A DNA stretch of 64,000 nt. Source: Escherichia coli O157:H7. Lineage in GTDB: Bacteria; Pseudomonadota; Gammaproteobacteria; Enterobacterales; Enterobacteriaceae. A program made the position numbers. Within the stretch, counting starts at the first letter, position 1. Each line of letters starts with the position of its first letter. Below are positions 53,301-56,300 of the stretch, one piece after another. The DNA is taken from NCBI RefSeq assembly GCF_013167455.1, contig NZ_CP038328.1; one strand, 5' to 3'.

Positions 53301-56300
53301 AGCGTCATTCTGGAAAAGGCTAACCGCCCCTGATTCGGTTTTTATTACCGCCTCATCAGTTGGGGTTATAACCGTGGCTTCAACGTTAATAATCAGCTTT
53401 TGAGCGTCTATCAGCATCATGCGATCCGCCTGTTCGCTCACAATTACCGGTATTCTCAAAAGCTCTATCTGCCAGAACTCAGCATCAGTAAGCTGTAATG
53501 CGTTTTCTACGGGCAAGATTAGCGACGACGTGGAAAGCGTGTTACCGTTCGCTATGTGCTTTTTGAAAAGCTCTATGAAGTTTTCGGCCTCATCAGCACC
53601 ATTAAGCACGCCCTCAGGGGATACGCCAGCCACCTCCTGATCACTGGAAAGAAATTTTTTATCTATTTCTTTCACCGATTCCGATGTGATCAAGTCTCTG
53701 ATCGCTGAATTGGTGCCAGGGGTGCTAAATTTGATTAGCTCGTTATTCAGCATCACAATAGCGCCAAGTTTGCACAGTTTTAGCGCGCTTTCGTTTACTT
53801 CTCCCTCTTTGACAGGGATTTCTTCTGCTTCTTTAAGCCATTTACTACCCTTGCCTGATATTGACTGCAATTTTGCGCCAAACGGAAGATTAAGCGCGCT
53901 GCTGATTAGCTTGCCTGGTACAGACTGCGAAAAAATATATTCTCCAAGCTCTCTTACTATCGGCTCTGCCACCAGCGACGGCATATTATCCGTAGTCATT
54001 CCGGCAATAATGGATTTTTCAAGAAATTTCGATACTGCCGGATCATTTCTTTTCGTCATCTCTATAGCGTCTGCATGGCTGAATTTACACGATGTAAGCA
54101 CGCTGGCGGCGCGAACTGCCGAAACGCCTTTCATGTTTTTAGAAATCATCTTCTTCATCCTCCTGGAAGCACGGGTTTAGTGTTTCGTGAAAATATGGCA
54201 TCAGAACAGCGGCGGCCTGTAACCGTATTTCGGTCGGCTGCTGCTTGTCGTTCATGATTTCCGTGAGTACATCAATAGGGTCTGTGATGTATTCGCTCAT
54301 AGTTCGCTACCTCAGTGTTTTAAGTCTGTTGGTGGCTTAGGGATGGGGAACCGATTTGAGTAGACACTAGCGGCATTGAGTTTTTTAACCTCTTTTTTCC
54401 CAATGCTGCCGATCTTGCGGTGGGTGAACTGGGCCAGCTTAAACGCGGCATCTAAAGCCAGTTTTGGATCTGTGTCCATGTTGTCAATCAGTATCCTGCC
54501 CATTGCTTTGATGGGGTCGGGTAGGCCGTTATCCATCATCTCAATGGTGTTAATTGATGCCCGTTCCGGTGTAACTTTTTCGGTAACTTTCTTTGTAACT
54601 TTTTTCGGTTTTGTAACCTGAAAAGTTACATCAGAAGTTACAGCCTTAAGATACTTTTTCACCTCAGGATCGTTGGATAGCTGCCAGCCTTTAACCCTTG
54701 CGGTCTTTTCGCTGTATCCAGCATGTATAGCGGCTTCCGTGGGATTTGCGCCCCTTGATAACGCATCAGCAAACCGCTTTTTTTTGGTCGTTAATGCCAT
54801 GCAAAAACCTCGTTTTGAGGGGGTGTAACTTTTCGTGTAACTTTTTTGAAAAGCAAAATTTTCTACGAATGAGACGGGGGGCGGTGTCCAGGGCGATCGA
54901 CTTTCCGGCCGGAACACTCCCCCCCTGTCATTGCTCACCGAGTAACGAGATCAGGCCTTCAACTTCATCACTCAGCTTGTTTATTCGTGTCTCAAGCTCT
55001 GCGATCTTTTCCATCAATGGCGCTATGGTGTCTCTTGTTTCCTCGCCAATGGCTTTAATGATGCTTGCCTCGCGTTCTGTGATAGCCATTGTTTACGCCT
55101 CACTTGTTGCAATGCCCAGGCGTTCGCGTAACAGTACGCGCGCAAGATGCCCTATTGTTGGTGTTGCCGCCCTGCCGTAGATACCTGATTCATTCATCCG
55201 GCGCACAATATCGAACTGCAACTTTTTAAGCTCGTTAAGGATTTCATGATCAATCATCACGGTAGCGCTTTGCTTTATCTCTTCCACTTTGTTTTCTCCA
55301 GATACTTATCATTGCATAACCAGTATTTTCGATAGATTATCATTAATTAACCATCTTTGAAGATATATGAGATCGAAAAAAAGCCGGATTGCTCCGGCTA
55401 TGTGCTCACTTCTTCGGTTATTCTCCAGCGCTTTTAACGTTGATGGTTGTTACCTGTTCCGCTTCGGCAATCTCCCGTTCTGTCAGCGTGGCAAAGTTTG
55501 CCGCCGCTGTGGTCATGAATGCGCTTATCAGTTCGGGATGTGCTTTCGCATATCCTTCCCCGGCGTTGCGGTCGATGATTTTTATCGACACCCTTAACCA
55601 GTGTTCCGTCAAATCAAGGGCGTGCGATTGTGATTTTTTTGTGTGCTTCGCTGTCATAGGCTTTATCTCACAGCAGTAAATTAAAATTTTTGCGTTTTAA
55701 CCCTTCACCTGTTCACCTTTTGATATTTTATCTTTTAATTCATAATGTTAAGGGGTGAACAGTTTCACAAAAACTATTCACCAACTATTCACCACTGTTC
55801 ACCCTTGAAGCTCAATAAACAATCAAAAAGGTGAACAGTGAATAGTTTGGTGAACAGTTCATAAATAACTGTTCACCCTATAATATACTGATATAAAAGA
55901 TATTTATGACAGGGTGAACAGTGGTGAACAGTTATTCCATAAGTTTAATTTTTGCTATCGTCATTAGTGACCGATACACATGACGGCATCCAGTCTTCTG
56001 ATTCCTCCGTCAGTGTCACGTTTGAACGCAAACCGTGCTTCGTTTTCCGTTTCATATACTCCCTGCCATATTCCGCCATTGCCCCCGGCATATCTTTACC
56101 GAAGCGCGTCAGTGTTACAGGTTTACCGAATCCGTGTGCCCTCATATATGCCAGATAGGCGTGATAAAGATACCTGCGCGGACTGAACGGAATAATTTCG
56201 GCATTACCCACTAACAGACCATCACACATTACCGACGACATGAGATAGCCGCAGAAGTCCACCAGCGAATCGCCCTCGCGTTTTATCACCAGAGCTTCTT

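What the first reader, a model, noticed from the sequence alone, without database searches (positions are those of the whole stretch)
55690..55935. Iteron array with the P4 type I motif (TGTTCACC) next to the replication gene
At least eight copies of GGTGAACAG / CTGTTCACC in both orientations are packed into ~250 bp of AT-rich DNA immediately downstream of the primase/helicase-like gene. This is the architecture of an iteron-driven origin, and the octamer is the one I recall for P4 alpha-protein binding at ori and crr. The replication protein here is only ~605 aa, so it may be a shortened or rearranged variant of alpha.
Basis: partly seen in the sequence, partly recalled or inferred. Interest (0 to 1): 0.6.

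Follow-up and report, generated by a model that had tools for sequence, protein, structure and literature searches.

The report
P4-type iteron origin in PICI
The repeat cluster is real and is almost certainly the replication origin of a small phage-parasitic island (a PICI) in the E. coli chromosome, using the same 8-base protein-binding repeat as satellite phage P4; it is a well-formed example of a known kind of origin, not a new kind of system.

Summary
Observation confirmed. There are eight exact TGTTCACC sites at 55710-55930 (1.7 expected in the whole 64 kb), plus two one-mismatch and two weaker sites. They start 14 nt past the stop codon of a 605-aa replication gene (55945-57762, minus strand).

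Interpretation supported. P4's own record annotates this octamer as its 'ori type 1 repeat' at ori and crr. The protein's C-terminus matches the solved P4 alpha origin-binding domain (1KA8, E=1e-24). Residues 145-595 are 51% identical to alpha. Alpha's Zn-ribbon and Toprim primase part is missing.

The 12 positions form two inverted copies of the six-site P4 ori unit: two direct sites, a 43-44 bp AT-rich spacer, one inverted site, three direct sites.

The element is not P4. It is a ~9.5 kb E. coli PICI at tRNA-Pro between yejM and yejO, carrying int, alpA-like, Icd-like, DUF4222, rep, ori, terS and a capsid-like gene. PICI origins 3' of rep are published, and EcCICFT073's origin was shown to work. 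That origin aligns collinearly with this one but uses TGTCTACC.

Likely mechanism (inferred): Rep binds the iterons, melts an AT-rich spacer and loads itself as an SF3 helicase; priming comes from elsewhere.

Novelty: new member of a known kind. Interest is low to moderate.

The parts
55701..55930 (.). Whole iteron array, the putative PICI replication origin. It has 12 iteron positions: 8 exact, 2 one-mismatch and 2 degenerate. They are arranged as a quasi-palindrome centred near 55815.
   Evidence: (inverted repeat I1 arms 55729-55784 / 55847-55902, 75% complementary)
55830..55930 (-). Half A, nearest to rep. Read on the minus strand it has iterons at 55923 and 55913 (direct, 10 bp apart), a 43-bp step to the inverted iteron at 55870, then 55849, a degenerate site at 55837-55844, and 55830. 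The order and spacing match P4 ori (10, 43, 22, 11, 10).
   Evidence: blastn aligns window 55831-55935 at 76% to the ori of a genuine P4-like prophage
55701..55803 (+). Half B, the inverted copy of the same unit. It has a degenerate CCTTCACC at 55701, an iteron at 55710, a 44-bp step to the inverted iteron at 55754, then 55775 and 55786 (both TATTCACC) and 55796.
55878..55912 (.). AT-rich spacer of half A (35 bp, 20% GC) and candidate unwinding site. It contains a 9/9 match to the IHF consensus WATCARNNNNTTR at 55881-55893(-).
   Evidence: conserved CA..A..TTA positions across P4 and PICI origins
55718..55753 (.). AT-rich spacer of half B (36 bp, 17% GC), the second candidate unwinding site.
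55804..55829 (.). Central AT-rich segment (26 bp, 27% GC) between the two halves; it holds the symmetry centre.
55945..57762 (-). rep, encoding a 605-aa alpha-like initiator-helicase. RefSeq annotates it 'DNA primase family protein'. Its start overlaps the upstream DUF4222 gene by 4 nt.
55984..56277 (-). Rep C-terminal winged-helix origin-binding domain (aa 496-593, Pfam Pox_D5). It is 49% identical to the P4 alpha OBD.
   Evidence: (1KA8, E=1e-24)
56464..56790 (-). Rep SF3 helicase core (aa 325-433, DUF5906). It has Walker A GPGGSGKS at aa 326-333, Walker B-like IIMPD at 371-375, and SRRR at 431-434.
   Evidence: match to SaPI5 PriRep 7OLA, E=1.4e-10
56890..57279 (-). Rep D5_N domain (aa 162-291).
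57364..57762 (-). Rep N-terminal domain (aa 1-133), an alpha/beta fold shared by PICI Reps that carry different helicase classes. It has no Zn ribbon and no Toprim catalytic Glu or DxD.
55418..55657 (-). 79-aa gene (phrog_1231) just downstream of the origin. A terminator-like hairpin follows at 55382-55399(-). The gene is conserved next to PICI origins that have other iteron types.
60392..61651 (-). P4-family tyrosine integrase of the island (NCBIfam PRK09692, 552 bits, above its cut-off of 434).
61852..61928 (-). tRNA-Pro(GGG), the integration target. Its 3' end (TTGGTCGGCACGAGAG) is repeated at 52275-52290.
52275..61866 (-). Extent of the PICI (~9.5 kb) between the tRNA-Pro 3'-end repeats. 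The order is int, alpA-like (59689-59895), Icd-like (58378-59010), DUF4222 (57759-58058), rep, ori, orf79, terS (54312-54938), capsid-like (53181-54158). yejM (62003-63763) and the yejO autotransporter (49586-52177) flank it.

Best explanation
The array is the vegetative replication origin of an E. coli phage-inducible chromosomal island (PICI) integrated at tRNA-Pro between yejM and yejO.

Its cognate initiator is the adjacent 605-aa Rep. Rep is a derivative of the P4 alpha protein that keeps alpha's D5_N, SF3-helicase and C-terminal winged-helix origin-binding domains but lacks alpha's Zn-ribbon and Toprim primase.

Inferred mechanism:
- After helper-phage induction and excision, Rep binds the helically phased (C)TGTTCACC iterons through its winged-helix domain.
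- The two inverted six-site units each flank a 35-bp AT-rich spacer, where the DNA is melted.
- Rep loads itself as a hexameric 3'-5' helicase. There is probably one hexamer per half, which would allow bidirectional theta replication.
- Primers come from host DnaG or another primase.

Shown here: the repeats, their arrangement, their conservation, and the protein homologies.
Shown by others for relatives: alpha binds this octamer (P4), and rep plus ori are sufficient for plasmid replication (EcCICFT073).
Inferred: binding, melting, double-hexamer loading and the primer source in this element.
For: Eight exact sites cluster in 221 bp, against 1.7 expected in 64 kb.

The same octamer is annotated as the type 1 repeat at P4 ori and crr.

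The Rep C-terminus matches the solved alpha origin-binding domain 1KA8 at E=1e-24. Residues 145-595 are 50.7% identical to alpha. The Pfam domain order is the same as alpha's minus the primase part. Walker A and the Arg motif are intact.

Each half of the array is collinear with P4 ori, with a P4-like prophage ori, and with the EcCICFT073 ori.

EcCICFT073 rep-ori drives plasmid replication, and deleting rep or ori abolishes it. [quoted passage not shown]

In five PICI origins whose Reps are 74-98% identical, iteron columns are 74.5% invariant against 42% for the remaining columns (Fisher p=3e-7).

Iteron type tracks the origin-binding domain. Reps with TGTTCACC origins share 49-98% OBD identity with this Rep. 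The CFT073 Rep, whose iteron is TGTCTACC, shares 32%.

No other iteron cluster exists in the island.

The island has the PICI gene set and att repeats.

The SaPI Rep literature gives the self-loading model: winged-helix CTD, iterons on both sides of an AT-rich region, two hexamers (PMC9371898).
Against: No experiment exists for this particular origin or Rep.

P4 itself needs a second distant cis site (crr), which is absent here, so the P4 mechanism cannot transfer unchanged.

Rep has no recognisable primase, so the source of primers is unknown.

The conservation test uses only five related sequences that are not independent.

The island may be partly decayed. The 58378-59674 region has overlapping ORFs where relatives carry pseudogene annotations.
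Confidence: 0.85

Rival explanations
1. The array is a crr-like cis-acting enhancer or Rep-titrating (handcuffing, copy-control) site rather than the initiation site itself, and the true origin lies elsewhere.
For: In P4, the iteron cluster immediately downstream of alpha is crr, not ori. The window array sits in that same position.
Against: No second cluster of TGTTCACC-like sites exists anywhere in the island. Site order and spacing match P4 ori (2 + 1 inverted + 3 sites) rather than the crr unit. Blastn aligns half A to the ori, not the crr, of a P4-like prophage. The collinear EcCICFT073 region was required for replication.
Confidence: 0.06
2. The repeats are operator sites through which Rep or another regulator controls transcription of the downstream packaging genes (orf79, terS, capsid-like), with no origin function.
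For: The array lies between rep and the downstream genes on the same strand. No terminator is predicted between them, so transcription probably crosses it.
Against: No promoter-like site was found in the region. The architecture and the binding-domain homology point to origin recognition. An operator role would not exclude origin function.
Confidence: 0.04
3. The array is an inactive relic: an origin of a decayed island that can no longer replicate.
For: Some relatives at other att sites are truncated, for example the clpS-side pseudogene in L001. Part of the island's early region looks rearranged.
Against: rep is full length with intact motifs. int is full length. The iterons are exact. The same origin is present at 90% identity or more in 583 complete E. 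coli genomes.
Confidence: 0.05

Closest known systems
Bacteriophage P4 ori (and crr) recognised by the alpha protein
   Same: The iteron octamer TGTTCACC is identical. The same six-site unit is present: two direct sites 10 bp apart, a 43-bp AT-rich step to an inverted site, then three direct sites. The cognate protein has a homologous winged-helix origin-binding domain (49% identity) and SF3 helicase (64% identity over aa 301-495).
   Different: Here two units are fused head to head at one locus just 3' of rep. P4 has one unit at ori plus two partial units at crr, about 4.5 kb away. Rep lacks alpha's Zn-ribbon and Toprim primase. The element carries terS and a capsid-like gene. None of its ORFs matched a sid, delta, psu or epsilon family in the NCBIfam and PHROGs scans; no targeted search was run.
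Gram-negative PICI rep-ori module, prototype EcCICFT073 (Fillol-Salom et al. 2018, PMC6092414)
   Same: The island organisation is the same, and the origin lies immediately 3' of rep. The iteron layout is collinear. The Rep N-terminal domain is 67% identical and the helicase is alpha-type. Rep-ori sufficiency was shown experimentally for EcCICFT073.
   Different: The iteron core differs (TGTCTACC in CFT073, IHE3034 and ATCC 25922). The origin-binding domain is only 32% identical. None of the six published E. coli PICIs checked here has TGTTCACC.
EcCI11128 / EcCI11368.1 (published PICIs at the same yejM-tRNA-Pro-yejO site)
   Same: The attachment site is the same. The integrase region is 93% identical, the packaging module 97.6% identical, and the Rep N-terminal 130 aa are 74% identical.
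   Different: Their Rep continues as a RepA/AAA_25-type helicase, and their origin uses AGTGGGGA iterons. The window's island carries a different helicase-OBD-ori cassette between about 55598 and 57395.
SaPI Rep-ori (Staphylococcus aureus pathogenicity islands)
   Same: Both have a self-loading SF3/MCM-like initiator-helicase with a C-terminal winged-helix domain. In both, the origin lies immediately downstream of rep, with oppositely oriented iterons around AT-rich DNA (PMC9371898; 7OLA match).
   Different: SaPI iterons are 5-6 nt and unrelated in sequence. SaPIs carry a separate or fused active primase. The hosts and helper phages differ.

Membership tests
PICI replication origin (Gram-negative PICI rep-ori module) | The origin lies immediately 3' of the replication initiator gene. 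| tested here: met
   The first iteron ends 14 nt from the rep stop codon.
PICI replication origin (Gram-negative PICI rep-ori module) | Sets of short iterons in opposite orientations flank AT-rich DNA. | tested here: met
   There are 12 positions in two inverted units, with AT-rich spacers of 17-27% GC.
PICI replication origin (Gram-negative PICI rep-ori module) | The host element has PICI organisation: int, alpA-type regulator, rep, terS or capsid-morphogenesis genes, no tail or lysis genes, about 8-12 kb, flanked by att repeats at a PICI-specific site. | tested here: met
   The site and flanks are the same as published EcCI11128.
PICI replication origin (Gram-negative PICI rep-ori module) | Rep plus ori support autonomous replication. 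| not testable with these tools
   This is shown only for the collinear EcCICFT073 module (PMC6092414).
PICI replication origin (Gram-negative PICI rep-ori module) | A helper phage induces excision, replication and packaging. | not testable with these tools
   No helper phage can be identified from the sequence alone.
P4 origin system (alpha protein with type I iterons) | Type I iteron TGTTCACC. | tested here: met
   There are eight exact copies. The P4 record annotates the same octamer.
P4 origin system (alpha protein with type I iterons) | Site arrangement of P4 ori: 2 direct sites, a 43-bp step, 1 inverted site, 3 direct sites. | tested here: met
   The arrangement is present twice, in inverted orientation.
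P4 origin system (alpha protein with type I iterons) | The cognate protein has the alpha-type C-terminal winged-helix origin-binding domain and an SF3 helicase. | tested here: met
   1KA8 matches at E=1e-24. Pfam finds D5_N, DUF5906 and Pox_D5. Identity to alpha is 50.7%.
P4 origin system (alpha protein with type I iterons) | The initiator carries the Zn-ribbon and Toprim primase domain. | tested here: not met
   Pfam finds both domains in alpha and neither in Rep. In the MAFFT alignment of Rep with alpha, whose N-terminal part is weakly supported, the catalytic Glu and DxD have no acidic counterpart. Fold evidence for a Toprim remnant is inconclusive (hhalign).
P4 origin system (alpha protein with type I iterons) | A separate cis-required crr lies several kb from ori. 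| tested here: not met
   The island has only one cluster.
P4-like satellite (element level) | The sid-delta-psu operon and epsilon are present. | tested here: not met
   The island's ORFs match terS, a capsid-like protein, Icd-like, DUF4222, an alpA-like regulator and int. None matched a sid, delta, psu or epsilon family in the NCBIfam and PHROGs scans. No targeted search for sid, delta, psu or epsilon was run.

The most novel reading that the evidence does not exclude
This PICI cassette uses exactly the P4 iteron together with a homologous origin-binding domain. P4-like satellites and this PICI lineage could therefore cross-talk at the level of replication. P4 alpha could fire or titrate the PICI origin, and the PICI Rep could bind P4 ori and crr. 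The outcome would be cross-activation, replicon incompatibility, or parasitism of one satellite by another. The primase-less Rep could even depend on a co-resident alpha or on host DnaG for priming. In addition, PICI initiators would be modular: a constant N-terminal domain joined to exchangeable helicase-OBD-ori cassettes.
Probability: 0.25. Interest if true: 0.55.

Novelty: new member of a known kind. Interest (0 to 1): 0.3.

Why it matters
The result assigns a precise, testable origin and initiator to a PICI lineage that is very common. The origin is found in 669 of 5,426 complete E. coli genomes.

It shows that the P4 origin unit and the PICI origin are homologous DNA modules that differ mainly in the iteron core.

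It flags the RefSeq label 'DNA primase family protein' as probably misleading for a protein with no recognisable primase domain or catalytic residues.

It suggests that replication specificity in these islands changes by swapping a helicase-OBD-ori cassette. It also suggests that two families of phage satellites may share one replication specificity.

None of this changes how such origins are thought to work.

Tried and rejected
Chance or low complexity was rejected by the shuffle control.

'The element is a P4-like satellite' was rejected. The scans found no match to a sid, delta, psu or epsilon family, there is no crr, and alpha's primase domain is absent. The island shares its site and flanks with published PICIs.

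Several literature attempts failed. A full-text search for the octamer returned only unrelated primer sequences. The 1993 EMBO J paper on alpha is not held. The iteron sequences in Fig. 2a of PMC6092414 are in an image and could not be read.

I therefore checked six published E. coli PICIs directly, and none has TGTTCACC. The ED1a record is not in the collection.

The homologue search with the N-terminal domain returned mostly truncated E. coli and Shigella fragments.

Co-occurrence of this PICI with P4-like satellites could not be computed, because full hit lists are not returned.
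Full report
**1. Observation**

TGTTCACC occurs nine times in the window on both strands. Eight of these lie at 55710-55930. The expectation for the whole 64 kb is 1.72, and no shuffle reached nine.

Allowing one mismatch adds TATTCACC at 55775 and 55786. Comparison with relatives shows two further degenerate positions: CCTTCACC at 55701 and TATTCACT at 55837-55844.

The region is 33% GC and contains three AT-rich stretches of 17-27% GC. The array starts 14 nt past the TAA stop of the 605-aa ORF at 55945-57762 on the minus strand.

**2. The octamer and P4**

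The P4 reference genome (NC_001609) annotates 8-bp 'ori type 1 repeat' features in two places. One is crr (4291-4590, directly downstream of the alpha CDS at 4636-6969). The other is ori (9310-9413). Eleven of these features are exact TGTTCACC.

**3. The protein**

- Pfam finds D5_N (162-291), DUF5906 (the SF3 helicase core, 325-433) and Pox_D5 (496-591).
- P4 alpha has the same three domains in the same order, preceded by Zn_Ribbon_Prim (30-66) and Toprim_3 (210-299).
- tblastn aligns Rep residues 145-595 to alpha at 50.7% identity.
- Residues 497-593 match the crystal structure of the alpha origin-binding domain (1KA8) at E=1e-24. The helicase core also matches SaPI5 PriRep (7OLA, E=1.4e-10).
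- Walker A (GPGGSGKS, 326-333) and the SRRR motif (431-434) are intact.

Rep is therefore an alpha-type initiator-helicase without alpha's primase module.

Its first ~130 residues are a separate domain. An AlphaFold model is confident (mean pLDDT 82, above 90 over residues 1-130) and shows a beta-alpha-beta fold.

In a MAFFT alignment, the motif FAGSDAW falls opposite alpha's AEGYATA, and YQAGLL falls opposite alpha's AADRDL. If that alignment is right, the Toprim Glu and DxD would be lost. I treat 'degenerate Toprim' as an unproven lead. What is shown is that no primase domain or catalytic motif is detectable.

**4. Anatomy of the array**

Read from rep outward, the sites have these orientations and start-to-start spacings:

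+ + (10), - (43), + (21), + (19), - (34), - (10), - (11), + (21), - (44)

With the two degenerate positions added, this is two inverted copies of one six-site unit. The unit is two direct sites one helical turn apart, a 43-44 bp step across a 35-bp AT-rich spacer to an inverted site, then three direct sites.

P4 ori is exactly one such unit, with spacings 10, 43, 22, 11, 10.

A multiple alignment was made of both window halves, P4 ori, the ori of a genuine P4-like prophage, the vB_KppS-Ant element and EcCICFT073. It is collinear throughout, including conserved positions inside the AT-rich spacer.

The repeat finder independently reports the long imperfect palindrome: arms 55729-55784 and 55847-55902, 75% complementary.

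blastn aligns window 55831-55935 at 76% to a P4-like prophage. The match falls at that prophage's ori, between its vis-like gene and its sid/delta/psu genes.

No second cluster exists in the island. There is therefore no separate crr. The two fused units may do the job that ori plus crr do in P4; this is inference.

**5. Conservation**

Five PICI origins were aligned whose Reps are 74-98% identical: the window, IMT5155, F690, 2013C_3963 and vB_KppS-Ant. Iteron columns are 74.5% invariant, against 42% for the other intergenic columns (Fisher p=3e-7). The sequences are few and related, so this supports the reading without being decisive.

Iteron type tracks the origin-binding domain. Reps with TGTTCACC origins are 49-98% identical to this Rep in that domain, and P4 alpha is among them. 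The EcCICFT073 Rep has TGTCTACC iterons and is 32% identical there, although its N-terminal domain is 67% identical.

**6. What the element is**

The island runs from tRNA-Pro(GGG) at 61852-61928 leftward, in this order:

- a P4-family integrase (PRK09692)
- an alpA-like regulator, an Icd-like protein and a DUF4222 protein
- rep, the origin and a phrog_1231 gene
- terS and a capsid-like gene

yejM and the yejO autotransporter flank it.

A 16-nt copy of the tRNA 3' end recurs at 52275-52290. The repeat CCGTATAACTAAACGTATAACTAAAA occurs at 52353-52378 and 61696-61722. That repeat corresponds to the published att core of the yejM-site PICIs (Table S1 of PMC6092414).

The published EcCI11128 occupies the same site. 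Its integrase region is 93% identical and its packaging module 97.6% identical. Its Rep switches after residue ~130 to a RepA/AAA_25 helicase, and its origin uses AGTGGGGA iterons.

The window therefore carries a swapped helicase-OBD-ori cassette, roughly 55598-57395. The same cassette, 97% identical, sits in an island at the cspD-clpS site in an O157 strain.

The origin is found in 669 of 5,426 complete E. coli genomes, and in 583 of them at 90% identity or more.

**7. What is already known**

Fillol-Salom et al. [quoted passage not shown] They show that EcCICFT073 rep-ori maintains a plasmid, and that deleting rep or ori abolishes this.

Satellite surveys note that P4-like elements and PICIs share homologous int, AlpA and primase/replicase genes (PMC10085698).

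SaPI work gives the mechanistic model. Rep is a self-loading helicase. Its winged-helix CTD reads the iterons. Melting is ATP-independent. [quoted passage not shown]

I checked six published E. coli PICIs. CFT073, IHE3034 and ATCC 25922 use TGTCTACC. 11128 and 11368.1 use AGTGGGGA. 042 uses AAGTGAG. None has the P4 octamer. I found no text stating that some PICIs use the P4 iteron. However, the iteron sequences of the paper's Fig. 2a are in an image I could not read.

**8. Mechanism, with status of each step**

- Shown here: the sites, their phasing and inverted-unit layout, their conservation, the cognate-domain homology and the island context.
- Shown by others for relatives: alpha recognises this octamer. 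This rests on the P4 record, on the 1KA8 deposit, and on my own knowledge of Ziegelin et al. 1993, which I could not retrieve. Rep-ori sufficiency is shown for EcCICFT073.
- Inferred: Rep binds the twelve sites, melts one or both 35-bp spacers, and loads itself as a hexamer or double hexamer for bidirectional theta replication. Primers come from DnaG or another primase.

A perfect IHF consensus at 55881-55893 hints at host-factor bending. Matches of at least 8 of 9 positions occur 1.8 times per kb in this window, so this is only a lead.

**9. Rivals**

- A crr-like enhancer or handcuffing site. The position favours this, but the layout, the ori-level homology and the lack of any other cluster argue against it.
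- An operator for the downstream genes. No promoter-like site was found.
- A relic in a decayed island. rep, int and the iterons are all intact, and the cassette is widespread.

Together these rivals get about 0.15.

**10. Verdict**

The finding is a clean new member of a known kind: a PICI origin with P4 iteron specificity.

The most interesting open possibility is replication-level cross-talk between P4-like satellites and this PICI lineage, together with the modular exchange of helicase-OBD-ori cassettes behind a constant N-terminal domain.

Noticed in passing
[not shown]
   Followed up: partly
window 52275-52290 and 61850-61866; 52353-52378 and 61696-61722; 61663-61722: Two different direct repeats bound the island. 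One is a 16-nt copy of the tRNA-Pro 3' end (TTGGTCGGCACGAGAG). The other is CCGTATAACTAAACGTATAACTAAAA, about 80-130 bp further in, which matches the published 'att core' of yejM-site PICIs. Next to int the second motif also occurs as an inverted pair. Given the P4-family integrase, the tRNA 3' end may be the true crossover core, and the other repeats may be arm-type integrase sites.
   Followed up: partly
window 55881-55893 (-): There is a perfect 9/9 match to the IHF consensus WATCARNNNNTTR (TATCAGTATATTA) inside the rep-proximal AT-rich spacer. The core CA..A..TTA positions are invariant across P4 ori, a P4-like ori and PICI origins in the alignment. Matches of at least 8/9 occur 1.8 times per kb in the window, so significance is modest.
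   Followed up: partly
L003 (LR881103.1, 'Escherichia phage vB_KppS-Ant'), 9938-11949: This 16.5-kb 'phage' record from an induced prophage carries int, a Rep 74% identical to the window's, and eight TGTTCACC sites directly after rep in the same layout. It also has terS, terL, capsid, portal and head-tail connector genes. It looks like a capsid-forming PICI rather than a phage, and it shows this rep-ori cassette in a second satellite type.
   Followed up: partly
window 58378-59674: Two long overlapping minus-strand ORFs occupy this region. One is 210 aa with an Icd-like C-terminus, and the other is 237 aa with no family match. In the corresponding region, related islands are annotated with partial or frameshifted Icd-like and ash-family pseudogenes. 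The island's early region may be rearranged or decayed.
   Followed up: no
window 56511-56518; 57216-57223 and 57248-57255: One further exact TGTTCACC lies inside rep, within the codons of the VNNN helicase motif. A facing pair of one-mismatch sites also lies inside rep, 32 bp apart. These are probably chance, but auto-regulatory Rep binding inside its own gene was not excluded.
   Followed up: no
window 55945-57762: RefSeq/PGAP names this protein and its relatives 'DNA primase family protein' or 'primase-like DNA-binding domain-containing protein'. No primase domain is detectable, so the name reflects only the D5_N and Pox_D5 ('P4 primase C-terminal') models.
   Followed up: yes
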